This document shows positions 12,493-64,000 of a stretch of DNA of 64,000 nt, in pieces. Made by a program: the position numbers and the translations under genes. The stretch is taken from assembly GCA_002633005.1 (NCBI GenBank), contig NMRA01000128.1, positions 423,165 to 487,164 on the forward strand, written 5' to 3'. The stretch comes from Phoronis australis. Its lineage: Eukaryota > Animalia > Phoronida. Within the stretch, counting starts at the first letter, position 1. Each line of letters begins with the position of its first letter. The notes under the pieces are model-generated. The model had not been told where the DNA came from and did no database searches. It was given only the letters and a program-made list of their open reading frames with translations.

Positions 12493-12840
12493 ACCGTGGT
12501 TGACATTTTTGGAGGTTTCTGGCAGGCACAACCCAGAGTTTATTGTCTGTTATGGGGCAGTTTAGCCGGGGACCCGTGACATGTATTGAATCACATGGAA
12601 TTGTTTTTTTGTAGTACCTCGAATATATGAGCTAGCTCATTTTTGGGGATCCCGGCTTTTTTATTTATGCCGGACCCATTCCAGAGTACAATTTGTTTGT
12701 CATAGGCCATTTGGTGTTCAGTGCAGTTGTTGGTTTTTCAGTTTTGGCCGGTAGGCCTACCTCGAATATCTTAGCTAGCTCATTTTTTGACTCCCTTGTA
12801 TGGTCCCCAGGGGTCGCACCCAGAGTGCAGACAACAGCAA
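12493..12840 (+). mobile_element. Internal part of the repeat family seen at 35696 and 56977, ending ~80 bp before the PNN start codon
   Basis: CCGTGGTTGA..CCCATTCCAGAGT..CACCCAGAGTGCAGACAAC collinear with ~35798-36137; terminal arms absent. Confidence 0.8.
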
Positions 12841-12918
12841 CTCTCGAGTCAATATAGCACCGTTTCGGCAGGGGGCAGCACTGTTCATCAGCCTCGCACA
12901 TGCGCTTTAGCAATAAAC

Positions 12919-35695: not shown

Positions 35696-36240
35696 GACCG
35701 GCAGCCCAGAGCACTTAGCATACATGTAGATGAACGAGGTACCAACATCTGACCACGGGAGCATTTAGAGCCCACCTCAGTATGTACAGATAGCTTACCG
35801 TGGTTGAGATTTTTTGGGGGTTTCTGCCGGGCACATTCCAGAGTGTAATTTGTCTGTCATAGGGCATTTAGTGATCTGTGACATGTATTGAATCATGTGG
35901 AATTGGTTTTGTGTGGTACCTCGAATGTATGTGGTAGCTCATTTTTGAGGGGTCCTTTTTTGGTTTCTGTCGGACCCATTCCAGAGTGCAGTTTGTCTGT
36001 CATGGGTCATTCGGTGTTGAGAGCGGTACTATTGTTCGTTTTAAATCAGTTTTGGCCGGTACCTCAAATATCTAGTCTCACTCATTTTCTGGGCCCTTTG
36101 TAAGGCCCCCAGAGGTCACACCCAGAGTGCAGACAACGGCAGACGTCCATTTCCGTACATACTGAGGTGGACTCTAAATGCTCCCGTGGTCAGATGATGG
36201 TACCTCGTTCATCTATGCTAAGTGCTCTGAGGTGCCGGTC
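35696..36240. mobile_element. Non-autonomous DNA element with ~90-bp TIRs and internal subrepeats
   Basis: GACCGGCAGCCCAGAGCACTTAGCATA..CCACCTCAGTATGTAC is mirrored by GTACATACTGAGGTGG..TATGCTAAGTGCTCTGAGGTGCCGGTC. Confidence 0.85.
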
Positions 36241-43044: not shown

Positions 43045-46000
43045 ATGGATGCAAAAGATAAACGTCGACTTCGGTTAAACTATGATTTCCTTCTAGAAAA
43101 TCTTAGCGACGTGCATAGCATTGCAGTACGCGTAATTTCCAAAACGGGCACTCGTTCTCTCGACAAAATTACAGGCACCAACAACGAGGAGTGTAAAGCA
43201 TTTCTGGAATGCTTGCAGAAGATAGAAGGCGGTTATGCAGCATTCTGTGCGAGCTTAGATGAACTAGAGCTCAGTTGGATAGTGGAGAGATTGGAAGAGA
43301 CGGACATTAGCCGAGACGACGACCAAACTGTACCAGCGGGACCTTTGAGGAGAAGTTCATCATACCTTGAATCAAAACGTAAGTAGCAGTGGTGGATTTA
43401 TAGGGGGGCCAAGGGGGCCACACACCCCTAAAACCCTCCCAGAGATAGCCATTTTAAAACCAATATTTTAGAAAGTAAAAGTAAGTTTTAGATTATTTCA
43501 AATGAAGCAAATTACAGACGCAAATTATTACTGTCACTGATCAGCCCGGTATTGGCTGCCAGCGAAGCTAACTTCACGAGTAATCCGAAAGCCTTGTGTG
43601 TCCTAACAACCCAGCAGAATTCACGTACTGATGGTATAGACCCAATTCACGCCGACAGGAGGAGCGTTCCACAACGAGGCTCGCTACGACTGGAAATAGC
43701 GCAGAATGGTGAATGTTGACCAAATCAAAGACGCTACGGTCTCTGACCAAATCCCCTTTTGTCCGCTGACGTCACACGCATACTGGCGCCCCCAGTGGAG
43801 GCCCTGAGAACTCGTAAATAAGCACGCTGGCGACTGTGATTAAAGTATTTTTTATGATTTTTCCAGAGTCGCTATGTTTTAGTGTGTTTTTTAAATAATG
43901 TTGCATGTCATACCTCTCAGAAAATTAATATTGTTCCAATAAATTAAGAAAATTGGAATATTCATTCTCGCGATCTTGCAACACCATCCAAATGTTCTTC
44001 TGTGTTACACACGGCAAAGCCAAAATTTATCCCCACGCGAAATAGCCTTGTTCACGCTCGACTAAAAAGGAATCTTTCAATCATAATTAATTGGTACTTT
44101 ATCCCATTCATTATTATATACCATGCATTATGTTTTTAGAAAAAAAAACGATACTCAACGTCCCACAATAAATACAAGTCTGTTCGCCAGCTACCCTCTG
44201 ACACAGCGTCACCTATACTGTGATAGAGTGTATTCGCCAGCTTGGCTCGGCCGCTGCTAGGCTTGATACTACCGGGTTCATGAACTCGGTTTATTTACGA
44301 GTTCTCAGGGCCTCCACTGGGGGCGACAGTATGCTTGTGACGTTAGTGGACAAAAGGGGATTTGGCCAACATTCACCATTCTGCCTGGATTAGCTCTGTT
44401 GGCTTATCGGGACTCTATTCACGAGGCGGACATTAAAATCCAAAGCGAGGCTCACTGCGATAAACAAAGCGGAAATTCACACTGCGTGAGTTAAATGGCC
44501 GGTCTTTGGAGTCCAACCTGAATATTAAAGGAGAATGCCACCCGATTTAATTAGTCTTTTTTGTCGTCTTAATCGGTCTATATCCACATCGCCTCGCATA
44601 CGGTCGACCTTACCTTGCCAAGAGGTGTCGCGTTAACCTGTGAGGAAGGTGAGAAACTACGCTAGCGACGTCAGTGGTTCATATGCAGAATGAATGCCGC
44701 TATGTTGCGGTGCATCGTTCCCGCTTGTCCGAACTAAGCAGCTGCGAGGAAAGCGGGTATATCGTTTTTTTTTACTTCCTCGAGAGTCCGAAATGCTTAG
44801 GAAGTAGCTCATCGTAGTCACGGTGAAGAATGAAATGTAGGCTGTAAATAGCAAGTATGAGGCCGTGAAACATCTCCGTGTCTGTGGTCTGCAGACGTCG
44901 ACAGTGCCTGACGAATGCCGACTTACAAAATAACTCCATACGTTACGTTGTCTGAGCTTGTTCACGGTACCTCTCTAGTATTTCTTCATCACTGTATTCC
45001 TGTTCGAATTGATAGCATGTAAAACTTAACGATCCACCTGCGAAGTCGGGAGTGATGAGCTCTAGCTAGTCCTAAGTCGGGATTGCGAGTTGCCATGTTG
45101 GCGTTTATTACTGAGCGTTCTGTTTCAAAATGAATTATTCTCATCCTAACCAATACTTATATAAAACTGAAACAAAGTCTGCCTCATTAGATGCAATTTG
45201 TAATACCTTTGGAGTGTTCGTGAGTGCAAATGATTTGAGAAGCCAGCAATGAATAAATCACTGCGTTACCGGCTTTACTTTTTGACGGGACACCGAGGCC
45301 GTTTGAGCTCATGCTAATTTATTGTTTGCTGGCAGAAACTGTTGTGAAACAACTCGATTTCCATCCCACGGCCAGGTGTTAGGGGAATCTTTATTTACAT
45401 TTACATTACTCAAATAATGATTGTCAATGTACAACTTCTGCCCTGACGGTGCTGTGGCCAAAGCGGAACCTGAATTCGCGGCACCCGACGAGTAAGTAGA
45501 TTTGCAGTTTCGTGCCAAATTCACCAACATAATCACGTGCACATTACTTTGGCTCACTAGTATAGTATTTTCTTGACTGGAAGTTTAGTTTCCACTGAAC
45601 TTTGGCTGGTTTATGTTCGTGATGTCTGATCAGTTGGCACTGGCCGGCCGCGACGGGCCTGATCGGGCTCCGAGCCACTGGCCAGGATAACAAGCGTTTT
45701 GTGTTTAGAACTCAAAAAATCACAAGTCTAAACAACACAGATCAAAGTTCTCGTGTCTGTATTTCACGAAAAATACTTCGAACAGACCCCAAACTCCTGC
45801 TACGGACCTTATTGGCCTGCCGAACTTTGTAGGCTAAGGTTTGTCCAAAAACCAATAAATCCGTAAGAGCGAAATAAAACAACACGTTTTCATCAGAACT
45901 CGGTGTATTTTTAAGGGTTTTACATCGAAGTTTGATGATTTATTGGTGTTAAACGATGACTTCAAGCGATAAGCTGACACCAGTAACCCGTGTTGAGAAC

Positions 46001-49000
46001 TGCTGAACAGACTGCGTGTGACACCGATGACATCACTGGATAATTTCAACACCTCCGTCTGCCGTCAGGTGTCAGGTAACGCAACCGTACGTGTAGTTAT
46101 GGAGTAGAACTACTTGATCTAAATCGATACAAATTAGGTTGTTTTTTGGGTGGCATGCTCCTTTAAGACATGCGCACAATTTCGCATGCACATGAAATTT
46201 GACTACCGTTTCTAGTTGTGCTGGCCAGCTGGAGACGGTGGTCACTGTCTACATGGAATCCAAATCAAGTGTTTTACTGCCCGGGTGTTGTTTTCGGTAT
46301 AGGTGCATCTGATAACCGAAATATCGTTTGTTTTTGCATGTAAAAGTTTAAAAATCACATCTAAGTTTGAAAGTTTAGATATTTTTGGAGCGGTGAATCT
46401 TCGGAGTAGTGAATCGTCGAAGAAGTGAACTTTCGGAATAGTGAACCTTCCGAGTAATAAACCTTCGAAATAGTGGGATGTTCCCATTTCCAGCGATGTA
46501 AGCAACTTAAGTAACACGCTAAAATACAACCAGATAAACAATTTTATTAAGTCAGTCGCCGACTAAACTTCATATTTCCGTCTGAGTATGCAATGAGGTG
46601 TAATCACTCATTTAAACATGGCTGATTTGAAACTTTGGCAGGAAATAATGCGAGAATGTTCTCTTTCTGGAGCACATTACATCCTAATTTGTGTTCCGTT
46701 CTTTGCGAGCAACCGTCACAGCATCCTCGTCTCTGGTATTACAAATTCCTTCTCATCTCATGAACATAGAGCTGAGAGTCATGGTTGTGCTGCGTCAAAG
46801 GCCTTACCGAAAACTCTACAGTGTCGACGCTTGCAAAATACCAAAGGTTCACCGTTCTTGAAATTCGAACCACCCACTCAGTGCTGGCTACCGGCCTGAA
46901 TAGGATATATAAATTTGAGTAGAGAGATGGGGGAGTCTAACAAAAAGTCACCCCTGCATCGGCCAAACCTCTGCATGCTACTGCCTGACCGCTAAAATGT
47001 CTGTAAAATACCCTTTGTTGCATGCAGAATGTTGCTCGACATTATGCAAATGGTTTCAAACGGTTACCTGGCAGGTAAATTTGGCAGAACTCAGATATTT
47101 GATTGTGTGTCGCGGGGCTAATCCAGAGCAAGACTTGTTTCGCTGTGTTTATTCATGATACAAGGGCTTACGTAGAATATTTTGCATCTGGTTTCATGCG
47201 GTCCCTTGGGTTGATTTACGTCAAATTTTAGCCCTTTCTTTAGTCGTCTCGCAGGGTCACCCCACCCCTGAAATTGTCTGGCATCTTACTGTTGTACGAT
47301 GTGCAGTGACACTGATCAGCATCGTGCAACTGGCTTCAAACGGTTACCTAGTGGGTTCATCTAGCTCGACTCAGGCATTTGGGCGTGTCTGACGGGACCA
47401 CCACTAGATTTGTCTGGCAGTGTTTATTCGTGATACCTGGGCTTACAGTGAATATTTTGGAAGATGGTTTTAAGCGGTTACCTCTTGGGTTGATCTAGGT
47501 CAATTTTAACCCTTTTTGATAATCGTCTGGCAGGGGCACCCCATCACTGAAATTGTCTGGCATCTAACTATTGTGCCATGTACAGTGATGCTGAACGTCG
47601 TGTAATTGGTTTCAAACTGTTACCTGGTGGGTTGATCTAGCTCAACTCGGCTATTTTGGCGTGTCTGGCTGGGCTAACCCACCACTAGATTTGTGTGACA
47701 GTTTTCCTTCGTGATACCTGGGCTCACGGTGAATATTTTGCAACTGGTTTCATGCATTTACCTCTTGGATTGATCTAGCTAATTTTTTTACCTTGTTTAT
47801 AACCGTGTGGCTGATACTCCCCACCACTGAAAGTGTCTGGCAGTGACCAATTTTGATACAGTGGATTACGTAGTAGGTATCCAAAGCAGTTTGAAGTGGT
47901 TACCAGAAAAGTTGATCTAGCTCAATTTTTTAGTGTCATTCTCTTGGCTCCCCTGACCACACCCACCAGAGCGAACCTGCCAGACGGCCATTTCCAAACT
48001 TCAGGATACCCACAGAGCACTGTGGCACCAAAGAAAATTGGTTACCTTTTCATGCCCAAAAAAGCTCTGGGATGCCGGTCTACAGCTTTTCTTGAGTTGG
48101 GACTCGTCTCTGTTTGATTGAATGAACGTGGATTTGGAATTCGCCGCCGAAGATTGATCCGTTTAAAAAGCTTTTGCACGTACTTCCGATTGGAAGTACG
48201 TACAGTTGGGACACCCGATTTGTCAATTATAACCTTGTCACCTTCTCGGAATTCCGATATTGTTTTGTGTTTTGCAGACGATAAAATGTAAGGCGTATGA
48301 GAGTCTACTTTGCACTACTTTGTCATTCGCCCATGTAATATAAAAATACGTACTCGGTGTTATTAAACAGTCGTGTTGTAACACATTCCAGGTCATGTGA
48401 GAAACATAAATACTCATTAAATTGGGAAAGTGTTCAGTAGTTATAAAATTGGGAAAAGTCAGAGAGTATAGACATACCTTTAAATATATCCTTTTTTCTC
48501 CAGTGAAGTACTTCCCTAGAAGAAACGAAAATTTTACTGGCCGAGAGAGGGAGCTTGAATGTCTACATGATGAATTTCACAAGTCATCTACGAAATCTGC
48601 GAAATGTCGCTCTCAGGCAACCAGTCGACAAGAGATACGGATTCATGGATTAGGGGGTGTCGGTAAATCCCAAATCGCTATTGAGTATATTCATCGCCAC
48701 CAAAACGAATATCGTCTTATTAGATGGATTCGCTCAGGACCACATTCCATTAGAAACTCCATCATTAACTTTGCAAAAGATCTTGACGTTAATGTTGAGG
48801 AAGTAGTTGACGACAAGGATATTGCTCTTAGAATATCAGATGTTTTACTCACTTATGATTCTTGGCTTCTGGTGTTCGATTACGTAGTGTCGAATGATGA
48901 TATTAAACCATTCATGCCCGACTTGGACCGTCTTAAAGAAGGTCAAAATATCATCATTACTTCGGTTACTCCCACAGGTACACCTAACTGCCTCGAAGTG

Positions 49001-50686
49001 AATGCATTTACGGAGGAAGAAGCCTATGAATATGTGTCCAGTCGTCTTCCCCATATTGCATATTCTGACTACAAAAATGTCGAAGCAGTTAAAAACCTCA
49101 CGAAACAGCTTGGCAACTTGCCCCTTGCCTTGTCACAAGCTATTGCATTCATTAAGTTTGGCTCATGCAACATTGACAAGTATATAAAAATCCTGAGCAC
49201 CAGTCACGAGTTGCTAGACGAGAATGTCCACTTTCAAAATCATGCCAAAAAGTCTGTGTATTTCACCCTTATGACTTCCATTCGGAAAATCCTCGATGAT
49301 CAAAGTTCTTCCATTGGTGAACAAGCAGACACGTTACTGAAATGCGTATCTTTGTTGGATTCAGAAGATATTCCTTTAAGTTTGTTTGAAGAGGATGCAT
49401 TTTTTTCAGGGGACATTTTAAATAAATCTGTTGCAAAGTTGCGGGGATATTCGTTGATCAGTAGCCAACGACCGGGCACGGTGCGTATTCACAAACTTGT
49501 CCAAAGAGTTGTTCAAGAGTACTTATACAAGTTTGGACAACCAAGTGAAGTTGAACAGATTGGTCTCCGCCTAAAATCACTCAAACGTCTACCAACGATG
49601 TTTAAGAGGAAGTTGCCACGAGACTGCTCGTGTATTGGTTGGAGAAATGTCAACAGAGATGTCCTCGATACGTTGCAATCCCTACTTCCGCATGCCAAGT
49701 CTCTACTTTGGCATATTGACCAGGAACTCGAGGGTCTAACAGAATTGACGCTGCCATCTGAAGACCAATGTACAGATGTGCGTAAGCAACAGGATGACCT
49801 AATTCAATGTAGGGACACGATGCTCTTTTTCATTGGATTTTCATATTACTTTCTCCGTGACGCGCCTGAGGCTGCCAGTGCATTTAAAGACCTTGTTCAA
49901 GTGCGCTCAGAAACAGGAAAAGGTGACGATGTGAAAGAGGTCGAGGCGTTGGAGATGTTGGGAATCTGCAACCGACTGTCTCGAAATCACGAAGATTCGG
50001 TTGGAAATTTAACAAAAGCTTTGGACATTCTTAACAACTTACAGACCAGTAATCACGACCAACTGAGAATTGCCATTATGACAGCTCTTGGCAAAACGCG
50101 TTACATAAAGGGTGAGTACCAAGAATCCTGCCAACTTTTAGAAGAGGCACTGAATCTGCAATCCAGTTATAGTAAAACATGCCCCGAGAAGAAAAGAGAT
50201 GTGTTCTGCTGCCTGTTGTCCTATATTCTCCCTAAGCTTGGTAGCGCTTACCTGGGCGCGGGGAAGTTACCAGAGGCGAGGGTAAAGTTTGAGGAATGCT
50301 TAGAGGTGAGACAGAAGCTGTATTACGAAGGACATATTCTTCTTGCAGCATCGAGGTTCTGTTTGGGAAAGGTGCAACTTCTTTCTAATGACTTTGAGGA
50401 TGCCCGAGAGTCATTCCAGTTTTGTCTCGAATGTGCTGAATCTAACTACGGCAAACAGCACTCCTTTGTTGGCAAAGTAAATGCAATTATTGGCAAGTGT
50501 TGTATACTGCAAGAAAAATACCCTGATGCGTGCAAATCTTTGACCACAGCATTAAAAATCTTAGCATGGAGTTATGGCGAGATGTCTGAAATCCATGATG
50601 TGGTTCAGAAATGGCTAAAGCATGCAATGCAGCCTGACAAATGTTCTTTCGAGGACACCGAACGATTATATTTGTTTGATTTTTAA
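43045..50686 (+). CDS. CARD/death-fold-like + NB-ARC (STAND NTPase) + TPR protein, copy A (838 aa as spliced)
   Basis: Exon 43045-43378 (phase-1 donor AAAC|GTAAGT) joins in frame to 48504-50686 (CTCCAG|TG). N-terminal ~90-aa helical domain with CARD-like pattern; FTGRERE, Walker A GLGGVGKS, Walker B WLLVFDY, IIITS, LGNLPLAL, IHKLVQ; about 5-6 C-terminal TPRs, some with 42-aa spacing. Death-fold identity is pattern-based only. Confidence 0.85.
43700..44385. mobile_element. MITE with long inverted arms in the copy A intron
   Basis: CCAAATCCCCTTTTGTCC..CCCCCAGTGGAGGCCCTGAGAACTCGTAAATAA (~43747-43821) is the reverse complement of ~44290-44365; CAGAATGGTGAATGTTG also mirrored. Confidence 0.8.
44529..46162. 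mobile_element. TTAA-flanked Kolobok-like element in the copy A intron
   Basis: TTAA|AGGAGAATGCCACCC ... GGGTGGCATGCTCCT|TTAA: 15-bp TIR with one mismatch. Confidence 0.7.
46390..46475 (+). repeat. ~16-bp minisatellite, about 5 copies
   Basis: Unit close to GTGAACCTTCGGAATA. Confidence 0.7.
47050..47930 (+). repeat. Tandem repeat, ~280-bp unit, 3 copies plus a partial
   Basis: TGG(T/C)TTCAAAC.GTTACCT at ~47051, 47331, 47607; CTGAAATTGTCTGGCA and GAATATTTTG recur at the same period. Confidence 0.85.
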
Positions 50687-52137
50687 CCTACCATCCTCTT
50701 TATCTGTCGAACCTTCCCCTCTCCAGTCTCCGTCTCTCAACATGTTATAATCTTCCCGAGGATTACTGATTGATTTTCACAGCATCTGGTGATTTTCGGA
50801 CGAACCGAACTAAACATTCGCTGTGTGTGGTAATTTGTTTTTTGCATCAGTCATCTGCCTTTCACAAAACCGCGCGTACGATATTGAAAATGTCATCATG
50901 TGGATTTGTTTCGTTGATGGCTTGCAGAAACAATTGGAAGAATTCGACTACTTCTGGGACTGCAGCAGTTTTATTTTGTTTACGCGGCTCTTTATCTTCC
51001 AAATGACATAACATGTCTTAATGAAACCCTGCAAATTTGTTTATCATCTTAAGAAAATGACACCTGCAAATTTCAGGACTATTCTGAAACTGTATTGCGT
51101 TTCCTAGGGACTACTGGCATTTTATTTGTTTTGCGCCCATCTCTTTATGTGCCAAACGGTTCAGTTAAGTTCAACAAATTTTTATAACGCAGAGGACGGC
51201 AAGCGGAACCTCCAGTTTCGAACGGCTAGTGCTGTGCTCAGAGACATTTTAAATTTTTCAATTCTTTATCGGAAATAATGAAAACCATTCAAGAATTTGA
51301 AATTGAACTTTTATCTTGACTTTTTTTGATTTGAATTAAATACGGTAACAATATTTTGCATGAGAAGTACCCATACACCGTTTGCAGTGCTTGAGCGTTG
51401 GTTTATTTAAGCGTTTAGCGTTGATCTTGTTAAAAATAGATTTAATCTATTGCGTCAAGTGTAACACCTGTAACTGTATAGTAAGACGCCGGTCGCGAGA
51501 AGTATTGAGTAGATTGCGTGATAAAAAAATTTGAGTCGACCAAAGTTGTGTTCTGCTGTCTGATGGCAGGAATTATTAATTTCATGTTTGTTTTGTGGCT
51601 TCGTGACATGAGACAAGAACCGTTTTAAATATTACTGTATGTTAAAATGCGACCTCTGGTGGCGCTGCTTTGTGTGCAATGTTTTTTTTTAAATATTAGT
51701 GTCTTTTGTTATTGTTCGTTACGCCTTGGCTACTACGACGCCCATGCGTTATCGTGTCGGCGATGGCAGTGATCTAGAATACAATTTCCTTTGTAACTCT
51801 TTCTTTATTATCTTGCACTTAACCAATTAAACCCGTGCGCTATACCAAGCAAGGTGGGGCGACTGTTTTATTAAGTGATACCATGTCAAATTTTACGAAT
51901 ACCGGAAATGCCGCCGTTTCCTAAAAAACGATAAAAGTCACACCAAATCACCAGTATTCACCCCAAAGCCACTATTTGCATGCGATTACTGCGAACTGAG
52001 AGACAGTGCATTCCGACTAACAAAACTATCCAGATTGCAGGAATCAAGTGAAATATGGGTGTCGACCAGCCAGATCTTTTACAAATCCAAAGTGTCTGAA
52101 GTAATTTTCTGCGAAATTTCATCTTCCCGCTTGCAAA

Positions 52138-52730
52138 CAGTAATGGTTCAGGTAACTGTGAACTATGTTTACGAGGTTATATTCATGCGCAATTGTCTTA
52201 AATTCTCTTAGATCTAACCCCTACAAAGTATATTCTGAAAGGTGTATAAATTTCCTCACAAAATTTATTATTCTTGTTTATCTGCCTTTATTATGTCACG
52301 AGACATGTGCTTTTTTAGTAGTTTTTGTTACTTTAAGTAGAGATATTAAAAATATTGTTCCTCCAATCGTATTGGTCTTTTGTGAACATTTTGATAACGG
52401 CATTTTTGAGGGAAATAGGTCTCAGTTTTCTAATTATTGACTTTTTAGAGCATTTTGACCCAAAGCAGTCGCACTCGTGATTTTTGAAGTCTTTGTTCCG
52501 AAAAACTAGGGGAAACAATATTTTTAAAATCCCTGTTCAAAGTAAAAAAAAATAACTGAAAAAGTCACATCTCGTGACAAAATAAAGACAAGTAAACAAG
52601 AATAGTAAATGTTATTATGAAACTTATTCTTTTTTCAGGAAATATATTCTTTATAGGGGTTAGAGCTAGCGGAATTTAAGATATTTGCACATAAGTACAA
52701 CTTGGTAAACAAGGTTCAAAGCCACTACTG
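52138..52730. mobile_element. Foldback/MITE-like element with long degenerate inverted arms
   Basis: CAGTA..TCTAACCCCTACAAAG..ATTCTTGTTTA..GTCACGAGA mirrored by TCTCGTGAC..TAAACAAGAAT..CTTTATAGGGGTTAGA..TACTG. Confidence 0.7.
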
Positions 52731-54547
52731 AGCAAAAAGTGCGTCAAGGGGTCAACAACTGGCAATCTTTCTGTCGTAGCCTTTACATACAACACAACAC
52801 TTAAAATGCCCAGACAAGCCAGAAGGCGCCATTTTTAAGGAAATTGCCAGTCTTTAACTCAAAACAGACTAAAAAATCAAGCAAATGCCATTCATAGCAT
52901 TCAAAGCAGCACAAAACTTAAAATGTCCACAAAACCCAACAGGCGGCAATTTTTAATGAATTTAGAAAAGGCAAATTCAACCGTGGCTCAACGTGACCGT
53001 TGAATGGGTCCTAACATCAATGCGAGCAACAGCCGAGGTCGACCCAGTTAGTTCACCAGGCATAGGGGAGATGGAGTAGCAAGGATGAAGCAGCAACCGT
53101 TATCGACTTTCCTATCTGCACCACTGGAACTTACTAAGGTCATATATCGAAAGTAGAAGGGCGACGATGTAATCAGATGGGATTTTTCATGTCAAGTTCC
53201 CAAAGGAAGTGGTGATTTTTCCGAATAAAAGCGAAGCATAATTAGTAACTGTAAAATAAGGTCAATATCTGGAAAGGAACAAACAGATTTTACATTCTGT
53301 TTAGTTTTGTTTGTAATTCAAATTTAATTATTTTTTATTAAAATATAATCGTTTCGGTACTGAATTTCACAGAGGCACTCTTGCTTCAAAATTGTGGAGT
53401 GCTACCTGTCAATCAACACCGACCAAAATTACCTCCAGAATAGATTTAACAATAGAAAACGAACCACGGAGAAGGCTCTCCCATAGTAGGGGGTGACTGG
53501 GACGTGATACAGATATTTTCCCTCTCGGGTATCGTGAAATAATCCAACAAAAGATAGTGAATTCAAAATGGCGGCGTGTCTTGCTCGGACCAAGCACCTG
53601 TTTGAGTTTCCGAGAAACAGTCTTGGTATACGATAATGCAGAAGATCCACATTCACTATTCAAGTGGATTCAGTTTTTATAATTGGAGATAGAAACAACA
53701 TGACATGAAAATGGCGTTTATATAAGTTACCCCTATCGTTCCTCAATGTATCCATGCAGCCCATTACCATAATCTTTGTGTTCTCAAACCTTTATTCAGT
53801 GGAAGTAATTGCATGCCGATTATGCAGAAGCAGTTCAACTCTGACCCCTCTAGGTTTATAGCTGCCAAAAGTAAAACTTTCCAGCCTGGGAACAATCTGA
53901 ACTAGACTCTTGCGTAAACGCGGTTAGTGCTTAATGAACAGCATTTCAGTACTTTCAGTATTTTTGCGATAAGTTCGGGTGGCCCTCAATTTTTCAAAAT
54001 CATCGTGTAAATAAAGTGCACTTTTTCATAGGAGATAAAAACAACAACATATTCGGTTCTTTCATAATTTTATTCGCACAAGTGTTCTCCGCCTATATAT
54101 TTAATATCTGTTTATGGTTTTGTACCAAAGCAAGGAATCGTTTAGTTTATGCACAATCAGGTAGGTTCCGGCAGCCGGCTTCAAATTGACTGACAAACTG
54201 ATTCTAATATCTTCTTTAACCAATCGACATAATGAATTCATTTTCACCCTTACCTAATTGCTATTGAGCAGCATGATGGAATGAATGCAGATATCTGACG
54301 AAGTACTGCGCGCAATATCTCAGAGTTGTAATTTACTAAACAGTCTTTGTTCATAACGCACGCGACATCACCAATGACACCAATGAGTTCATTTGCTGTT
54401 CCGCACTCTATCTTACGTTCAAAATGACTTCTCTCTTGTCACGTATTTTCGGCGAAAAGGAAGAAGAGCAATAAAAGACCATTTATCTGAAAGGGCCTCA
54501 GATATTTAATTAAAATGATAGGTATGGTCTCTTAGTGCCTGGATTAT

Positions 54548-55482
54548 CTGTCGATGCCAGCTCCACACATATGACTGTACCCTCTCTGACAGTGAGACCA
54601 CCGGCTACTGGCGTGCCAGTACAGGGTGCCTCGGAGGACGATAATGCGTCGATGTCGAAACTCAGGTGGATTGGTCGATCCATTCTGCAAAAGACAATTA
54701 TTCAGCATAACGAATTATCGAGGTAATGATTTTCGATTATAGATCGCAAGGTCTTTGATTTATTCTTCAAATGTATGATTTACCTTCAGCTTGAATAAGT
54801 AATCGTTTTGTACCCCTGATTGCAGTTATCATTTTCATTTTACATTTTACCCTGGATTTATCAGCTCCAGAGATCTTTTGATGCAATAATGGATTCCGAA
54901 TTTGTCCACCTCGTGCATAGAGAAATATGGAATCTGAAACTTGTTCAGAATGCAGGCCTCGCCTGGGTCCACGTCTCGGATACCAATGTAAGCCAAGCTT
55001 TTGGTGCTTAACATGTAAAGATAAAAAACAATCATCACTTTAATACCTTCGAAACGCTTGATGCAAAAAGTGTATTGGCAAATCTGTGCTAACACACCAT
55101 GGCTTGGCCTAGTGGTGTCATTTAAGTATCCCGGTACTCCTTAGGCACAAAACAAGTTGGAAAAGTAAGCTATTCAAGCACCGAATAACTGGCTTGCTGA
55201 AATTTATTATTATTTGACATTACCTGCCGATAAGAAAATGTAGGTCAAGCCTTGTATGACTGGTGCCACTGAATACGCTCACTTACACAATAGATAGGTA
55301 GAAAGAAAGGAGGGCGGGAGACAGGGAGGGAGGGAGGAAGGAAGAAAGTAAGGATGGATGGATGGAAGGAAGGATAGATGGATGGATGGATGGATGGAAA
55401 GAAAGGAGGGAGGGAGGAAGGAAGTAAGGAAGGAAGTAAGGAAAGAAGGAAGGAAGGCAGGCATGCAGNNNNNNNNNNNNGG

Positions 55483-55515
<33 letters not shown>

Positions 55516-56066
55516 AGGAAGGAGGGAAGGAAGGAAGGAAGGAAGGGAGGAAGATGGATGGATGGATGGATGGATAGATAGATAGATAAACAGAAAGAAA
55601 GAAAGATAGACAGACAGACAGATTGACAGATAGATACATGTAGGGAGAGAGATAGAAAGGTAGATAGACAGATAGGGAAATAGATAGATACAGAGATAGA
55701 TAGCCAGATAGATGGATGGATGGATGGATAGATAAATAATTTAAAACAGGGAAACCATAAGCGACGACTAGTTGTCGCAGAATTGTAAACATTTGCTTAC
55801 ATGGTGTTCACCCATTCAAATCCCGGAAGTCCCGGGACGAAGTCTTTTAATTCATGAAGCAAGAATGACATGGGCATCCCATAAATATTGCCGCTCTTTG
55901 ACGTCAACAGTGTGTTGATATCAGCATGCGCGTCGATCCATACAACACAAGCATCTGGCTTCGCTTACAGGTGACCATGTATACTTCCTATTGCCAGGGA
56001 GTGGTCACCCCCAACAGTTAGAGCAATTTGACCTGACGAAATTGTTTCGAATACCCTTTTTGAAAG
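54548..56066 (-). pseudogene. Arginase pseudogene (three recognisable exons)
   Basis: Exons 56066-55801 ([28 protein letters not shown]), 55012-54851 (AYIGIRDVDPGE), 54684-54548 ([25 protein letters not shown]). In-frame TAA at 55965-55967; catalytic His of SGNLHG is Tyr; acceptor reads CAT at 55013-55015; donor reads AT at 54546-54547; terminal exons not found. Confidence 0.88.
55295..55735. repeat. Compound tetranucleotide microsatellite (GGAT/GGAA/GGCA/GATA/GACA) in the arginase pseudogene intron
   Basis: Direct reading; contains a 12-N gap. Confidence 0.95.
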
Positions 56067-56976
56067 CTGAAAATATAGAAGTGCCCCTGATTAGTACAAT
56101 ACAAACCTGTCAACCCCTTCACAACTTGTCTGAATTAGCTGAAATGGAACGAAAATTTTGAATTGACTGTCATCTCACAACTTTGAATTATATATTACTG
56201 TCGTTCGAGTGTATTTTTCGGAATCGAATGATTCTTGCACTTTTCTGCTGTATTAACTCTCTACAGCTGTTGGAACACAAAAGGGAAACATAGAATGTTG
56301 CTAGAATACACTTGTAATATTCAAAATGCACTTAGAATATTTTACGAGTGCAATTCGATTACTGCCGAATACCATACGAGATCTCATTGCCGGAGTTTCC
56401 TTTGTGGTTCTTCTGTAAATTGGCAGGCTTACTGTGAGCAAGATCATGATCACTGTTAAATCCTGGCAAATGAAACTCGACAATTATGTCTATATCTGAG
56501 AGGCAGGAAGAGGGGATGGGGACTCTGCCTTGGAATCTGAATCTGATTCGATATGTTGTCTGAGCAAATTCAAGTTAAGTTCCAGTGGCAGCTACAGCGT
56601 TTCTTTGCGATCTGAGACGTTCTTAATTTAAATAGCCCCCGACTCATTTGATGGCCAATGGAGGTCCTTCTGGCTGCAATCCAAGTGTCAAGACCTCATT
56701 CGCAGTACATTTCTGATGAACAATTTGATATCGACATAAATTCACTCAGTATTAAGAGATACTTTCAAAGTGCAATCTATCTCATTATTGGGCTCTGCAC
56801 TTCACGTAAGTCGGAATTTTAAATGTTATACCACAATATTAGCCTGGAATGGCTAAGACAACCGTGTAATAACCCATTTAGTTATCTCACTATTTAGATA
56901 ACATTTTTGGCGGCAACCGAGGCCGGTTTCGAACGTACGATTCACAGCTGAAAAGTACTGCCTGTTGTCTTTAATA

Positions 56977-57780
56977 GACCGGCAGCCCAGAGCACTTAGC
57001 ATAGATGAACGAGGTACCAACATCTGACCACGGGAGCATTTAAAGTCCACCTCATTATGTACAGAAATGGACGTCTTCCGTTGTTTGCACTCTGGGTGTG
57101 ACCCCTGGGGGCCTTACAAAGACCCCAAAAAATGAGCTAGACTAGATATTCGAGATACCAACCAAAACTGATTTAAAACGAACAATAATACCGCACTGAA
57201 CACCGAATGACACATGACAGACAAATTGCACTCTGGAATGGGTCCGGCACTGAGAAGCCAAAAAAGGACCCCTCAAAAATGAGCTAGCACATACATTCGA
57301 GGTACCACACAAAACCAATTCCATGTGATTCAATACATGTCACAGATCACTAAAACCCCTATGACAGACAAAATACACTCTGGGTTGTGCCCGGCAGAAA
57401 CCCCCAAAAATCTCAACCATGGTATGCCATCAAAAATTTGAGCTAGACTAGATTTTCGAGGTACCGGCCAAAACTGATTTTAAACGAACAATAGTACCGC
57501 ACTGAACACCAAATGACCCATGACAGACAAATTGCACTCTGGAATGGGTCCGGCAGAAACCAAAAAAGGANCTAGACTAGATTTTCGAAGTACGGGCCAA
57601 AACTTATCTTGAACTTGAACAAACAATAGTACCACACTGAACTCCAAATGACCCATGACAGACAAATTGCACTCTGGAATGGGTCCAGCAGAAACCAAAA
57701 AAGGACCCCCCCCAAAAAAAAAAACAAAAAAAATGAGCTTGCTTATACATTTGAGGTACCTCACAAAACCAGTTCCATGC
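56977..57780 (-). mobile_element. Reverse-oriented copy of the 35696-36240 element, with extra internal units and one TIR
   Basis: TIR GACCGGCAGCCCAGAGCACTTAGCATAG preceded by TA; unit ATGACAGACAAATTGCACTCTGGAATGGGTCC repeated at ~57214, 57520, 57655. Confidence 0.85.
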
Positions 57781-59139
57781 TTATATAGACAGCGTGCTTT
57801 TTGTTTGCTATGTTCCTTATGTATATTCCTTAGTTTTTATCTATTCATGTTAGCCTTATATTCCTCTGGGTTTCAGTTACTATGATTTCGACACCTTGTT
57901 GTGTCGATCTATAATTTTGTTTTGTTTTGTCATGCTGCCTAGCTGTACCACTCCATGTTCGTATATTCCTATTTACATGCTTACTTTTGCCCTCTTTTTC
58001 TTATGGCCCTTTTGGCAGCCTCGCTCGCTCTCTCTTGGGTGGGCGGATGCATCTTTCTGCTGCATCTGTGGCAGATTGTCACACACCTTTACAGTTCAAC
58101 ATATGTAACTTTTGTAATTACCGATATCTGTAGTAGTTTAGTTTGTCATAATATATATGACCTTTTATCTCATCTACACGTGTTGTTTACTGTAAACTAG
58201 CTTCGGTATCGCTTCGCAGTTAGCGCATATAAAAGCTAATAGTTGTGTAGTAACTGCAACCGAAATAGTCCAGAGATTCCAAATCTTCAGTTTGGCTGTC
58301 ACCACATTCGTACTTTTGTATCTATGTTATAAAGATTGAACTTGAACTAATGATATCTGTAGTTTTGTTTGCTGTGAAATGTTTACTGTACCTGTAAAGA
58401 TCCAGGGATGGGTTTACAATGAACTGATTTCTAAGTTTCGCTGGTGATCAAACTCTACGCCACTGTTTTGGTACATTAAACTTAAAACTAAAATAAAAAG
58501 ACAAAAACCCGTTCCCGCCCGGCAAAAAAACAAGTAGACTGAGGTATTAAAATATATAACAAAAACCGGTATGAAACATGTTTTTAAACATTGGTTTTAA
58601 AAAACCAATGTTCCTTTGAGGAGTGGCCCTTTGCCAACTAAGATAAACAAAAATATAATTTACCGTTTTTAGTCCTTATGTAATACTTAAATGAACCAAG
58701 TTAAGATCACTCTCTATTGCAGGCTGTGATTATGTGCAAATGTTAGAGCAATCCAACTTGGGTGTAATAAGAACCATCATTGTTGAGAAAGTAGTGCTAG
58801 CGATCACTTTTTCAAAGCTTAGATGTAGATGAATACAAAGGGCGTGCTGACTAATAAAAGTTGCCTGGGGCAAAGGGAATTTTAGCGGAGATCAGTGTAA
58901 GCGAAAAATTCTACACATGTTTATTTCTAACCAAAATTACTGGTTTATACATTTTGAAAATTCGCCAGTGTGTACAGGCACATAACTGGGCCTTGCTCGC
59001 ACTGGACAATGCGGTCGTCACAACTGTGTCCGACTTAGGCCCCGCTCTCTTTGATCCTGGGGAAAGCCGCTGAGAAAGAGCAGCGGTGAAAATTCCCGCA
59101 TATTTTTAGAAATGGGTTTTTTCCTTGTAAGCGCATTAT

Positions 59140-62100
59140 TCACGGCATAGTTAGTTATTTGTACCATTGACGTAAATCTATGTTTGTACAAACAAGGTAG
59201 AAAATAGGTCAAATGTGTTGTTTACATTGTATGTAAGGTTGTTGGTTTAGGTTTGGGTACCTTTGCATTTATTGTAAGCATACGCCATTTTCTTCAATAT
59301 AACGACGGCTAGGATGAAGAGAGTAGATCGTTTTCTGAAGAATGGATGCAGAAGGTAAACGTCGACTTCAGTTAAACCACGACTACCTTATAAAGAATCT
59401 TAGCGACGTGCATGACATTGCAATAGGCATAGTTTCCAAAACGGGCACTCGTGATCTCGACAAAATTTTAGGCATCCAAAGCGAGGACCGTGAAACATTT
59501 TTGGAATGCTTGCAGAAGATAAAAGGCGGTTATGGAGCTTTCTGTGAGAGTTTAGAAGAACGAAACTTCGGTTGGATAGTGCAAAAATTGAACGAGACAG
59601 ACATCAGTGAAGACGGCCAAACTGTACCAGCAGAAACTCCTTTGAATAGAAGCTTGTCATTACTTGAGTCCAAACGTAAGTAGACCTATTATGGGGAGTT
59701 AAACACAATACTTCACTGTTTAACAGCTGGAAGATTAATGTTTGTGTGTTTTTGCCTGTCTATGCGCCTTTGTCAATATGTTGGCCATCGGTTTTGAACT
59801 GTTTTTCCTCCCGTTTTTCTGTCCAAAGACCAATATTGAAATCAGGCCACTTGTCAAAACAAAATCGGGCTGCCGCAAAACATTATCTTATGGAATTGAA
59901 GCAGTGAGTTCAAACTCATAATTCAAAATTCCTGTCTCGCCAATCTATACTGTAACACTAGTCCACGGTTTCGTGCACTATCTTGAATATTCGAAACCGT
60001 GGACTGGCGTATCCCATAAGCTGTCATGTATCTCATTCGGTGTATCACTTCACACCAATTTGCTGGGATAAGCTATTAAGATACCTAGCATACATGTAGC
60101 CATCTCCGTTGCCAAGTAAAACAACCAGGATAGCGTTCCGTAGACCAACGAATCTCGCGAGTAAAACTAATCTGGTCACGTGTAACGCTTGCAATGCATG
60201 ATGGTATCTCACGAAGTCTTGTGTGACCTTGCATTTTTGCGAGATTCTTTCGTTTAAGAATTGTAGCCCAGAGCATTTCGAGTCAAACGTACCCCAGAAA
60301 AGTGAATGGCTCGACCGCTCCAATTTAAACACGGATCTTCCATCAATTGCCCAACGATGCGTTGTCCTATCATTTCTGCTTTGTGTGCCGAATTCTGAGA
60401 TTGTTTGGAAATGACATCATCGGCTTTTCCGTCCTGGAATGATGTGTTAGTGGAAATTATGTGTTTATTATCCTACTGCATGTTTAATAAACATTATACT
60501 CATAAAGATGGGAAAACTATTCAGTAGTTAAAAAATTGAGAAAAGTCCGAGAGTATAGATATACCTTTTCATTCTTTTTTCAGGAAAGTACTTCCCTAGA
60601 AAAAACGAAAATTTTACTGGCCGAGAAAGGGAGCTTCATCGTCTACATGATGAATTTCACAACTCATCTGCGAAATCTGCAAAACGTCGCTCTCACGGAA
60701 CCAGTCGACAAGTGATGAGGATTCATGGATTAGGGGGTGTTGGTAAATCCCAAATTGCTATTGAGTATATTCATCGTCACCAAGACGAATATCGTCTTAT
60801 TAGATGGATTCGCTCAGGACCGCATTCAATTAGAAACTCCATCATTAAATTTGCAAAAGATCTTGAGGTTAATGTTGAGGAAGTAGTTGACGACAAGGAT
60901 ATTGCTCTTAAAATATCAGATGTTTTATTCACTTATGATTCTTGGCTTCTGGTGTTCGATTACGTAGTGTCGAATGATGATATTAAACCATTCATGCCCG
61001 ACCTGGACCGTCTTAAAGAAGGTCAAAATATCATCATTACTTCGGTTACTCCTCTAGGTACAACTAGTTGCCTCGAAGTGAAGACATTTACGGAGGAAGA
61101 AGCCTATGAATATGTGTCCAGTCGTCTTCCCCATATTGCAAATTCTGACTACAAAAATGTCGAAACAGTTAAAAACCTCACGAAACAGCTTGGTAACTTG
61201 CCCCTTGCCTTGTCACAGGCTATTGCATTCATTAAGTTTTGCTCATGCAACATTGACAAGTATATAAAAATCCTGAGCACCAGTCACGAGTTGCTAGACA
61301 AGAATGTCCACTTTGAAAATCATGCCAAAAAGTCTGTGTATTTCACCCTTATGACTTCCATTCGGAAAATCCTCGATGATCAAAGTTCTTCCATTGGTGA
61401 ACAAGCAGACACGTTACTGAAATGCATATCTTTGTTGGATTCAGAAGATATTCCTTTAAGTTTGTTTGAAGAGGATGGATTTTTTTCAGGGGACATTTTG
61501 AATAAATCTGTAGCAAAGTTGCGGGAATATTCTTTGATCAGTAGCCAACGACCGGGCACCGTGCGTATTCACAAACTTGTCCAAAGAGTTGTTCAAGAGT
61601 ACTTATACAAGTTTGAACAACCAAGTGAAGTTGAACAGATTGGTCTCCGCCTAAAAGCACTCAAACGTCTACCAACGATGTTCAAGAAGAAGTTGCCACG
61701 AGACTGCTCGTGTATTGGTTGGAGGAATGTCAACAGAGATGTCCTTGACACGTTGCAATCTCTGCTTCCGCACGCCAAGTCTCTACTTTGGCATATTGAC
61801 CAGGAACTCGAGGGTCTAAACGAATTGACGCTGCCATCTGAAGACCAACGTACAGATGTGCGTAAGCAACAGGATGACCTAATTCAGTGTAAGGACACGA
61901 TGCTCTTTTTCATTGGATTTTCATATTACTTTCTCCGTGACGCGCTTGAGGCTGCCAGTGCATTTAAAGACCTTGTTCAAGTGCGCTCAGAAACGGGAAA
62001 AGGTGACGATGTGAAAAAGGTCGAGGCGTTGGAGATGTTGGGAATCTGCAACCGACTGTCTCGCAATCACGAAGATTCGGTTGGAAATTTAACAAAAGCT

Positions 62101-64000
62101 TTGGACATTCTTAACAACTTACAGACCAGTAATCACGACCAATTGAGAATTGCCATTATGACGGCTCTTGGCAAAACGCGTTACATAAAGGGCGAGTACC
62201 AAGAATCCTGTCAACTTTTAGAAGAGGCACTGAATCTGCAATCCAGTTTTAGTAAAACATGCCCCGAGAAGAAAAGAGATGTGTCCTGCTGCCTGTTGTC
62301 CTATATTCTCCCTAAGCTTGGTAGCGCTTACCTAGGCGCGGGGAAGTTACCCGAGGCGAGGGTAAAGTTTGAGAAATGCTTAGAGGTGAGACAGAAGCTG
62401 TATTACGAAGGACATATTCTTCTTGCAGCATCGAGGTTCTGTTTGGGAAAGGTGCAACTTCTTTCTAATGACTTTGAGAATGCCCAAGAGTCATTCCAGT
62501 TTTGTCTCGAATGTGCTGAATCTAACTACGGCAAACAGCACTCCTTTGTTGGCAAAGTAAATGCAATTATTGGCAAGTGTTGTATACTGCAAGAAAAATA
62601 CCCTGATGCGTGCAAATCTTTGACCACAGCATTAAAAATCTTAGCATGGAGTTATGGCGAGATGTCNAGGATTACTGATTGATTTTCATAGCATCTGGTG
62701 ATTTTCGAACGAACCGAACTAAATATTCGCTGTGTGTGGTAATTTGTTTTTTGCGTCAGTCATCTGCCTTTCACAAAACTGCGCGTACGATATTGAAAAT
62801 GTCATCATGTGGATTTGTTTCGATGATGGCTTGCAGAAACAATTGGAAGAACTCGACTAGTTCTGGGCCTGCCGCAGTTTTATTTTGTTTACGCGGCTCT
62901 TTATCTTCCAAATGACATAATATGTCTTAATGAAACCCAGCAAATTTGTTTATAATCTTAAGAAAATGACACCTACATATTTCAGGACTATTCTGAAACT
63001 GTGTTGCGTTTCCTAGGGACTACTGGCATTTCATTTGTTTTGCACCCATCTCTTTATCTGCGAAACGGTTCAGTTAAGTTCGACAAATGTTTATAACACA
63101 AAGGACGGCAAGCGGAACCTCCAGTTTCGAACGGCTAGTGTTGTGCTCCATAGAGACATTTTAAATTTTTCAATTCTTTATTGGAAATAATGAAAACCAT
63201 TCAAGAATTTGAGATTGAACTTTTATCTTGTTTTTTTTTTGATTTGACTTAAATACGGTAACAATATTTTGCTTGAGAAGTGCCCATACACCGTTTGCAG
63301 TGCTTGAACGTTGGCTTATTTAAGCGTTTAGCGTTGATCTTGTTGAAAATAGATTTAATCTTTTGCTTCAAGTGTAACACCTGTAACTGTAATGTAAGAC
63401 GCCGGTCATGAGAAGTATTGAGTAGATTGCGTGATAAAAAAATTTGAGTCTACCAAAGTTGTGTTCTGCTGTCTGATGGCAGAAATTATTAATTTCATGT
63501 TTGTTTTGTGGCTTCGTGACATGAGACAAGAACCGTTTTAAATATTACTATATGTTAAAATGCGACCTCTGGTGGCGCTGCTATATGTGCATTGTGTTTT
63601 TTTTAAATATTAGTGTCTTTTGTTATTGTTCGTTACACCTTGGCTACTACGACGCCGATGCGCTATCGTGTCGGCGATGGCAGTGATCTAGAATACAATT
63701 TCCTTTGCAACTCTTTCTTTATTCTCTTGCATTTAACCAATTAAACCCGTGCGCTATACCAAGCAAGGTGGGGCGACTGTTTTATTAAGTGATACCATGT
63801 CAAATTTTACGACTACCGGAAATGCCGCCGGTTCCTAAAAAACGATAAAAATCACACCAAATTACCAGTATTCACCCCAATGCCACTATTTGCATGCGAT
63901 TACTGCGAACTGAGGGACAGTGCATTCCGACTAACAAAACTATCCAGAATGCAGGAATCAAGTGAAATGTGGGTGTCGACCAGCCAGATCTTTTACAAAT
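59140..64000 (+). repeat. Tandem segmental duplicate of ~42830-52090 (upstream flank, exon 1, intron 3' end, exon 2, 3' flank); continues past the window end
   Basis: 62668-64000 aligns almost base for base with ~50758-52088. Upstream flanks share TGTTTGTACAAACAAGGT and TGTTTACATTGTA. Intron interiors do not visibly align. Confidence 0.93.
59342..62666 (+). CDS. CARD/death-fold-like + NB-ARC + TPR protein, copy B; 3' end interrupted at a single N (62667)
   Basis: Exon 59342-59675 (same length and phase as copy A) joins in frame to 60584-62666 (TTTCAG|GA). Same motifs as copy A, no internal stops. About 170 bp present in copy A (last ~32 codons and stop) are missing exactly at the N. Confidence 0.83.

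What the first reader, a model, noticed from the sequence alone, without database searches (positions are those of the whole stretch)
43045..62666. Tandem pair of death-fold + NB-ARC + TPR genes: candidate non-LRR NLR/Apaf-like immune or cell-death receptors
Seen: two-exon genes in which a ~90-aa helical N-terminal exon splices in frame to one ~2.2-kb exon with STAND motifs and TPRs; the ORF track misses the join. Established: effector-STAND-superstructure repeat is the NLR/Apaf-1 layout; NB-ARC+TPR is common in fungal NLRs and bacteria and has been reported only patchily in invertebrates. Inference: a lineage-specific receptor family that senses through TPRs and signals through a CARD-like domain. 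Function is not shown by the sequence.
Basis: partly seen in the sequence, partly recalled or inferred. Interest (0 to 1): 0.8.

Follow-up and report, generated by a model that had tools for sequence, protein, structure and literature searches.

The report
Invertebrate CARD–NB-ARC–TPR sensor gene pair
Two nearby copies of an invertebrate gene join a predicted cell-death signalling domain (CARD) to a microbial-style nucleotide switch and TPR repeats; one copy is spliced in RNA, and the protein likely works as an intracellular danger sensor of a kind already listed in other invertebrate genomes, here lacking the arginine that normally reads ATP.

Summary
The genes are real. Copy 1 (43045-43378 ^ 48504-50686, 838 aa) is spliced exactly as proposed: 8 stranded reads in one run plus a contig from a second study. 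Its first coding exon is a predicted CARD: best folds are caspase-9/Apaf-1 CARDs, Z 11.5, from a model helped by a known CARD. The second exon is NB-ARC + winged helix + TPR, nearest (at most 36% identity) to bacterial-type NB-ARC-TPR proteins, not Apaf-1 or NPHP3.

Corrections: copy 2 has matching splice sites but no junction reads, ends in an assembly gap, and lies beyond a broken arginase.

Additions: both copies lack the sensor-1 arginine (R in 114 of 120 relatives) and carry Y after the Walker B aspartate (0 of 120). The copies differ most in the CARD exon (65% identical) and least in the TPRs (97%).

Best reading: an apoptosome-like sensor that clusters CARDs; function untested. Death-fold, NB-ARC and TPR combinations, tandem pairs and effector shuffling are in print for corals, lancelets and placozoans. 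The scan holds no sequence look-alike. New member of a known kind.

The parts
43045..43378 (+). Copy 1, first coding exon (111 codons + 1 nt): predicted CARD (about residues 1-88) and linker
   Evidence: RNA joint at 43378; six-helix model pLDDT 81.7; caspase-9/Apaf-1 CARD Z 11.5; phmmer hit to limpet CARDs
43379..48503 (+). Copy 1 intron, 5125 nt, GT..AG, phase 1, rich in repeats
48504..50686 (+). Copy 1, second coding exon: NB-ARC, winged-helix region (DUF7779), helical region and TPRs, stop codon
   Evidence: Pfam; NCBIfam FxSxx_TPR N-terminal part E 7e-62, 210 bits against cut-off 300; stranded RNA depth about 2-15
48647..48670 (+). Walker A / P-loop, intact (spliced residues 160-167)
   Evidence: matches the consensus of 120 relatives
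48863..48886 (+). Walker B: D237 kept, next residue Y238 where relatives have N (111 of 120) or D (5 of 120), never Y
48965..48967 (+). Sensor-1 / RNBS-B position: V266 where 114 of 120 relatives have R; same in copy 2
50759..52086 (.). 3' flank of copy 1, 95% identical to 62668-64000
54513..56090 (-). Arginase exons between the copies, with an in-frame TAA at 55965-55967; 5' exons not found; likely a broken partial duplicate
59342..59675 (+). Copy 2, first coding exon; 65% amino-acid identity to copy 1, open frame
   Evidence: DNA contig 59085-60814 with 0 differences
59676..60583 (+). Copy 2 predicted intron, 908 nt, GT..AG, phase 1; no junction reads
60584..62666 (+). Copy 2, NB-ARC + TPR exon, open to the assembly gap at 62667; 79 differences from copy 1 in 2083 nt

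Best explanation
Copy 1 is a spliced, weakly transcribed gene for a predicted CARD joined to an NB-ARC switch and TPR repeats, and it likely acts as an apoptosome-like intracellular sensor: a protein ligand would bind the TPRs, the NB-ARC domains would oligomerise, and the clustered CARDs would recruit a CARD-bearing caspase or adaptor to start cell death or an immune signal. Shown: splicing and transcription of copy 1, NB-ARC and TPR domains, intact P-loop, loss of the sensor-1 arginine and Y after the Walker B aspartate in both copies. Predicted: the CARD fold. Inferred from other STAND proteins: auto-inhibition, ligand binding in the TPR groove, oligomerisation and caspase recruitment. Inferred from the motifs: it likely binds nucleotide but reads or hydrolyses ATP poorly, and would assemble ADP-bound as plant RPP1 does. 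Copy 2 is a tandem duplicate; its NB-ARC-TPR exon and 3' flank were likely copied or converted more recently than its CARD exon, and it may be silent or absent in some individuals.
For: RNA joint and + strand transcript. CARD: best non-repetitive hit among 1.84 billion proteins is the two Pfam-CARD stretches of a limpet protein (E 1.3e-4); language-model neighbours are CARD clusters at 0.88; model has the death-fold helix layout, pTM 0.69; the top 30 of 48,161 chains are nearly all CARDs (Z 11.5, rmsd 2.3 A, 88 aligned), ahead of DED, PYD and DD rows at Z<=8.0 (Foldseek agrees, TM 0.74-0.77). NB-ARC motifs align with 120 NB-ARC-TPR relatives. Purifying selection on exon 2 between copies (dN/dS 0.35). 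Precedent: fungal PLP-1 (patatin-NB-ARC-TPR) oligomerises and kills in a P-loop-dependent way (PMC12881547); RPP1 lacks the TT/SR arginine and forms an ADP-bound active oligomer (PMC9104254); invertebrate NB-ARC proteins with death-fold N-termini and TPR C-termini, often in pairs (PMC2246300, PMC4083563).
Against: No functional data, ligand, partner or immune-challenge expression. Pfam finds no CARD in either exon 1. The good model needed a known CARD in its 3-sequence alignment, only 2 of 5 models passed pLDDT 70, and the single-sequence model was a long hairpin with no death-fold match. No Foldseek row reached E 0.001. The TPRs are the most conserved part between copies (219 of 225 identical), unlike fungal NLR TPRs under positive selection (PMC4986451), though recent conversion would hide this. 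Two changed switch residues could equally mean a dead switch. No caspase or adaptor family was found among the window's reading frames scanned.
Confidence: 0.55

Rival explanations
1. The protein is a switch-dead regulator or decoy: with two altered nucleotide-sensing residues it cannot oligomerise itself, and instead titrates a caspase or a partner STAND through its CARD, or serves as the sensor half of a sensor-helper pair.
For: Sensor-1 R (114 of 120 relatives) is V and Walker B N/D (116 of 120) is Y in both copies; the RNBS-B arginine is expected to bind the nucleotide (PMC9519389).
Against: P-loop, Walker B aspartate, GLPL and the MHD-type histidine are intact; RPP1 shows that loss of this arginine is compatible with active oligomers.
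Confidence: 0.2
2. Only copy 1 is a working gene. Copy 2 is a silent, decaying or population-variable duplicate, so the 'pair' has no joint function.
For: No junction reads, near-zero RNA depth on its exon 1, and copy-1 letters in 37 of 39 tested read differences. Upstream likeness stops about 200 nt before the ATG, so the likely 5' exon and promoter may not have been copied. Exon-1 dN/dS 0.77 is not distinguishable from neutral (p 0.39). In DNA run X1 the copy-2 contig has depth 28 against 49-53 for copy-1-type contigs (a lead only, the tool warns that depth is no copy number). A broken arginase lies in the same block.
Against: Both exons are open and both splice sites are kept after 18% nucleotide divergence in exon 1; exon-2 dN/dS is 0.35; RNA depth is low, about 19% of each raw run was read, and the RNA comes from other samples.
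Confidence: 0.45
3. The NB-ARC-TPR exon came from a bacterium (for instance an intracellular symbiont) and was captured behind an animal CARD exon.
For: The exon has no intron; named rows among the 120 best hits are bacteria and two diatoms, none animal; in a quick tree the copies group with an unnamed metagenome TIR-type NB-ARC-TPR protein (support 0.99) inside a group holding a Wolbachia protein (0.90).
Against: Identity is at most 36% and the branch is long (0.87); no animal, fungal or algal NB-ARC-TPR set could be added, so the tree cannot test origin; NB-ARC-TPR genes exist in placozoans, corals and lancelets; one-exon NTPase + repeat genes are normal in invertebrate NLRs (PMC3879445); symbionts also take genes from hosts (recalled).
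Confidence: 0.15
4. It is a non-immune scaffold or housekeeping TPR adaptor (NPHP3- or kinesin-light-chain-like).
For: TPRs resemble kinesin light chain (E 3e-4) and are highly conserved between copies; neighbours are housekeeping genes.
Against: TPR_NPHP3 scores 18-22 bits against a cut-off of 100; no close orthologue in 5.8 billion clusters; a CARD marks death or immune signalling (established knowledge); fungal NLR TPRs also model on kinesin light chain.
Confidence: 0.08
5. The two copies are alleles that the assembler placed in tandem.
For: 95% identity over exon 2 and the 3' flank, and an N gap at the end of copy 2.
Against: Exon 1 differs by 18% of bases, the introns are 5125 and 908 nt and unrelated except at the ends, and contig depths of the two types are unequal.
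Confidence: 0.08

Closest known systems
Invertebrate death-fold / NB-ARC / TPR proteins (lancelet, sea anemone, sea urchin: PMC2246300; Acropora: review PMC4083563 of Hamada 2013; Trichoplax and Hydra: PMC6321704)
   Same: Animal NB-ARC protein without LRRs, death-fold N-terminus, TPR C-terminus, tandem duplicate, signs of different histories for effector and core.
   Different: The exact triple CARD-NB-ARC-TPR was not spelled out in the passages I read (figures are not held); 4 of 4 Trichoplax NB-ARC-TPR rows have no effector domain. No passage read mentions loss of the sensor-1 arginine. Orthology was not testable.
Apaf-1 / CED-4 / Dark
   Same: N-terminal CARD (best structural matches), NB-ARC, C-terminal repeats; inferred CARD-clustering output.
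   Different: TPR instead of WD40; NB-ARC gave no Apaf-1 or CED-4 sequence match at E<=10.
Fungal NB-ARC-TPR NLRs (PLP-1 of Neurospora, PNT1; PMC12881547, PMC4986451) and bacterial NB-ARC-TPR proteins (FxSxx-COOH system TPR, NF040586)
   Same: Same NB-ARC subtype by motifs and by language-model neighbours at 0.95-0.98; kinesin-light-chain-like TPRs.
   Different: Effector is an animal CARD on its own exon, not an enzyme, TIR or amyloid motif; fewer and more divergent TPRs; below the NF040586 cut-off.
Plant RPP1 (TTE/Q motif; PMC9104254)
   Same: NB-ARC lacking the RNBS-B arginine; precedent for an ADP-bound active oligomer.
   Different: TIR-NB-LRR of plants; a mechanistic analogy only.
Bacterial CARD-NLR systems (Lysobacter; Caulobacter LypABC; PMC13236601)
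   Same: CARD-like domain and ATPase-TPR protein in one cell-death system.
   Different: Several genes with protease effectors; ATPase described as Orc1-like; no PADLOC system model matched beyond two generic TPR models.

Membership tests
NB-ARC STAND NTPases | NB-ARC profile match above cut-off | tested here: met
   PF00931 30.3 and 36.4 bits, cut-off 23.5
NB-ARC STAND NTPases | P-loop, Walker B aspartate, GxP (GLPL) and winged-helix histidine | tested here: met
   all align with the consensus of 120 relatives
NB-ARC STAND NTPases | Sensor-1 arginine (T-T/S-R) | tested here: not met
   V266 in both copies, R in 114 of 120 relatives; known members such as RPP1 also lack it
NB-ARC STAND NTPases | Nucleotide binding and signal-dependent oligomerisation | not testable with these tools
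   needs biochemistry
CARD (death-fold superfamily) | Six-helix death fold, closest to CARDs | tested here: met
   model pLDDT 81.7, Z 11.5 to caspase-9/Apaf-1 CARD; model aided by a known CARD; separate sequence signals
CARD (death-fold superfamily) | Pfam CARD / CARD_2 match | tested here: not met
   0 families for either exon 1
CARD (death-fold superfamily) | Homotypic CARD-CARD binding | not tested
   no partner known in this genome
Invertebrate death-fold-NB-ARC-TPR NLR-like proteins | Tripartite layout in one spliced animal transcript | tested here: met
   copy 1 junction in RNA; domains
Invertebrate death-fold-NB-ARC-TPR NLR-like proteins | Common descent with the cnidarian, lancelet or placozoan genes | not testable with these tools
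   no named animal homologue was retrieved
Apaf-1 orthologues | C-terminal WD40 propellers | tested here: not met
   TPR only
Apaf-1 orthologues | NB-ARC sequence closest to Apaf-1 | tested here: not met
   no Apaf-1 chain at E<=10; only plant NRC1 at 0.0015; bacterial-type hits to E 6e-39
Bona fide animal NLRs (NACHT + LRR, as defined in PMC3879445) | NACHT domain and LRRs | tested here: not met
   neither family found
NPHP3 | NPHP3 N-terminal and TPR profiles above cut-off | tested here: not met
   TPR_NPHP3 18 and 21.7 bits, cut-off 100; no N-terminal family

The most novel reading that the evidence does not exclude
An animal 'TPR apoptosome' assembled by joining an animal CARD exon to a microbial-type, possibly symbiont-derived NB-ARC-TPR exon. 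It has dropped ATP sensing and oligomerises ADP-bound like plant RPP1, and the two copies keep one near-identical sensor wired to two divergent CARDs, so one trigger would feed two different caspases or adaptors.
Probability: 0.12. Interest if true: 0.72.

Novelty: new member of a known kind. Interest (0 to 1): 0.42.

Why it matters
Invertebrate NB-ARC-TPR genes are known from domain lists; in the passages I read, functional tests concern only fungal, plant and bacterial relatives. This gene is a compact (838 aa, two coding exons), RNA-verified example with a CARD, so it is an easy test case for whether animals run TPR-triggered apoptosomes besides Apaf-1. Its natural loss of the sensor-1 arginine makes it a test of whether ATP sensing is dispensable in animal NB-ARC proteins, as in plant RPP1. 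The correct gene model also matters, because profile searches miss the CARD and the join.

Tried and rejected
No genome is held, so paralogues could not be counted. The run search listed no RNA holder; RNA runs came by species label and were laid instead. Exon 1 alone: no Pfam family, no PDB sequence match, no match from 2- or 3-sequence profiles, no scored homologue among longer or similar-length proteins. 3 of the 4 representative hits (P0121-P0123) were dropped as tandem-repeat proteins with short matches. The single-sequence fold was a low-confidence hairpin; its fold search gave coiled coils only and was set aside. Two metagenome scans found no relative (0 of 228 and 0 of 336 candidate stretches). 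The NB-ARC tree (122 rows: two copies and the 120 listed hits; 10 of 130 hits were not listed and so left out; FastTree, midpoint root) has no named animal or fungal rows and does not test origin. Positive selection on the CARD exon is not supported (dN/dS 0.77, p 0.39 against neutral). The shuffle test against the limpet CARDs (z 9.5-13.7) is partly circular because that protein was chosen as the best hit. 5' arginase exons were sought by motif and Pfam and not found. No complex prediction was run, as no partner is known. Literature searches gave no passage naming a CARD-NB-ARC-TPR animal protein or testing one; Hamada 2013 and Lange 2011 were not read, and figures are not held, so absence from print is not shown.
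Full report
Setting. The window is animal DNA (about 39% GC, intron-rich) with an aldehyde dehydrogenase, pinin and an actin maturation protease-like gene to the left of the finding. A read search ties it to one coded organism and, weakly, a marine metagenome. No whole genome is held.

Observation. Both units exist. Each has a 334-nt first coding exon ending AAC|gtaagt and a long exon opening after a pyrimidine tract and cag; all four sites are phase 1. Joined in a script, copy 1 reads 838 aa to a stop at 50686, and copy 2 reads 805 codons to an N at 62667. That N stands for about 170 bases present in copy 1. Raw RNA reads show the joint 43378^48504 in 8 reads from 5 start places in run X10 and none in X8 or X9. 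One contig of run X5, a different study, shows it too. Exon 2 is covered almost only by reads of one orientation, as expected for a + strand transcript, at depths of about 2-15. For copy 2 no joint was found in 4 of 4 runs laid, exon 1 is nearly uncovered, and 37 of 39 tested read differences on exon 2 are copy-1 letters. This is weak evidence of silence: depth is low, about 19% of each raw run was read, and the samples differ from the assembled one. DNA run X1 holds copy 2's exon 1, intron and start of exon 2 as one contig with no differences, so the copy is real DNA. Arginase exons with an in-frame stop lie between the copies on the minus strand.

The N-terminal domain. Pfam, PDB sequences and two word-based searches find nothing. 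An exhaustive search of 1.84 billion proteins gave 4 hits. Three are tandem-repeat proteins and were dropped. The fourth aligns residues 4-96 with a limpet protein region that Pfam calls CARD (E 1.3e-4, two stretches). Both exons beat 2000 of 2000 shuffles against both limpet CARDs (partly circular). A language model independently ranks CARD clusters first (0.88, 170-171 shared features, below its 0.9 line). Folded alone the exon gave a poor hairpin. With the second copy and one limpet CARD it gave a death-fold-like helical bundle at pLDDT 81.7, pTM 0.69, in the best of five models (2 of 5 above 70). Against 48,161 chains the best matches are caspase-9, Apaf-1, MDA5, RIG-I and CED-4 CARDs (Z 11.5-10.2, rmsd 2.1-3.1 A), ahead of DED, PYD and death domains (Z<=8.0). 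Foldseek agrees on rank but no row reaches E 0.001. I put the CARD call at about 0.9. It is a prediction, and the model was helped by a CARD.

The long exon. Pfam gives NB-ARC above cut-off, DUF7779 and several TPR families; NPHP3's TPR model scores 18-22 bits against 100. The homologue search returned 130 proteins at E<=1e-10 among 7996 candidates; of the 120 listed, named rows are bacteria and two diatoms, none an animal, and many are unnamed. The best identity over the NB-ARC region is 36%. Language-model neighbours are bacterial and basidiomycete NB-ARC clusters. NCBIfam FxSxx_TPR matches the NTPase part below cut-off. PDB sequences give plant NRC1 weakly and no Apaf-1 or CED-4; the TPRs resemble kinesin light chain. 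So the protein pairs an Apaf-like CARD with the NB-ARC-TPR subtype shared by bacteria and fungi. A quick tree puts it on a long branch beside an unnamed metagenome protein, near a Wolbachia protein, but lacks animal and fungal rows and cannot show transfer.

First, in an alignment with the 120 relatives the P-loop, Walker B aspartate, GLPL motif and winged-helix histidine are intact, but both copies have V at the sensor-1 position (R in 114 of 120, V in none) and Y after the Walker B aspartate (N 111, D 5, Y none). This arginine is expected to bind the nucleotide (PMC9519389, passages). Plant RPP1 lacks it and forms an active ADP-bound tetramer (PMC9104254, passages). Second, divergence between the copies is inverted: exon 1 72 of 110 residues identical, NTPase 167 of 189, TPRs 219 of 225. 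Silent divergence is also higher in exon 1 (dS 0.27 against 0.08, p 3e-4), with a gradient from 82% to 99% along the unit. The simplest cause is recent conversion or recopying of exon 2 and the 3' flank, not selection on the CARD. Exon-1 dN/dS (0.77) is higher than exon 2's (0.35, p 0.03) but not different from 1 (p 0.39).

Mechanism. Shown: a spliced transcript of copy 1 with NB-ARC and TPR domains. Predicted: the CARD. Inferred from STAND biology: a nucleotide-bound, self-inhibited monomer; a ligand in the TPR groove releases it; NB-ARC domains form a ring; clustered CARDs recruit a caspase or adaptor. The nearest tested analogue is fungal PLP-1 (patatin-NB-ARC-TPR), which binds SEC-9, self-associates and kills in a P-loop-dependent way (PMC12881547, passages). 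The altered motifs suggest assembly without normal ATP sensing. I give this 0.55. A switch-dead regulator gets 0.2 and a housekeeping scaffold 0.08. On separate questions: copy 2 silent or variable 0.45, bacterial origin of exon 2 0.15, false tandem 0.08.

What is known. PMC2246300 (passages and supplement 1) reports invertebrate NB-ARC proteins whose CARD is replaced by double CARD, death, DED or TIR domains and whose WD40s are sometimes replaced by TPRs. PMC4083563 (passages), reviewing Hamada 2013 (not read), lists CARD, DED and death effectors, TPR among the repeats, loci in pairs or triplets, and effector shuffling in coral. PMC6321704 (passages and rows of supplement 4) finds WD40 or TPR repeats and CARD-like effectors in Trichoplax, but its 4 of 4 NB-ARC-TPR rows have no effector. 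PMC3879445 (passages) restricts 'bona fide NLR' to NACHT + LRR, which this is not. PMC4986451 (passages) shows positive selection on fungal TPRs. PMC13236601 (passages) describes bacterial CARD-NLR systems. PMC2575513, PMC12314368, PMC10952240 and PMC10698375 (passages) gave background only, and PMC13712769 only a reference line. Nine searches gave no passage naming or testing an animal CARD-NB-ARC-TPR protein, but figures and the key subscription papers were not visible. The scan's own index holds no sequence look-alike and nothing nearby; it holds unreviewed notes on related layouts in other animals, which are leads only.

Verdict. A real gene with a correct, RNA-supported model for copy 1, and a new member of a known but functionally uncharted class of invertebrate NLR-like proteins. 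The altered switch and the one-sensor, two-CARD pattern add some interest. Interest 0.42.

Noticed in passing
window 54513-56090 (-): Arginase exons (best match human arginase 2, E 1e-9) with an in-frame TAA and no 5' exons found. The layout would fit a duplication whose breakpoint fell inside an arginase gene, with the intact copy beyond 64000.
   Followed up: partly
window 42843-52086 against 59154-64000: Identity between the copies rises from 82-83% (upstream and CARD exon) through 87% (intron end) and 93% (start of exon 2) to 95-99% (rest of exon 2, 3' flank): a gradient typical of gene conversion or recombination.
   Followed up: yes
window 59085-60814: One DNA contig of 1730 nt with no differences at depth 28, against 49-53 for copy-1-type contigs in the same run; copy 2 may sit on one haplotype only.
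   Followed up: partly
window 42968-42970: The junction contig has 60 bases that do not match upstream of an AG: likely an unplaced non-coding first exon or leader.
   Followed up: no
window 44322-46330: Stretch inside the copy-1 intron with RNA depth of 100-300 on both strands and many variants: a transcribed repeat family; no Pfam family in its frames. Inverted repeat 43744-43821 / 44291-44368 beside it.
   Followed up: no
window 2470-8044 (+), 12775-23400 (+), 25598-28425 (-): Multi-exon housekeeping genes: an aldehyde dehydrogenase (methylmalonate-semialdehyde type by recalled motifs), pinin with an RS-rich last exon cut by a gap, and an actin maturation protease-like gene.
   Followed up: no
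window 12433-12839, 35693-36243, 56975-57779: Dispersed repeat with an internal unit of about 135-145 nt, in three places and both orientations.
   Followed up: no
P0124 (Patella vulgata XP_050408982.1): Limpet protein with an AIG1 GTPase, two CARDs and ankyrin repeats, named 'uncharacterized' by its source.
   Followed up: no
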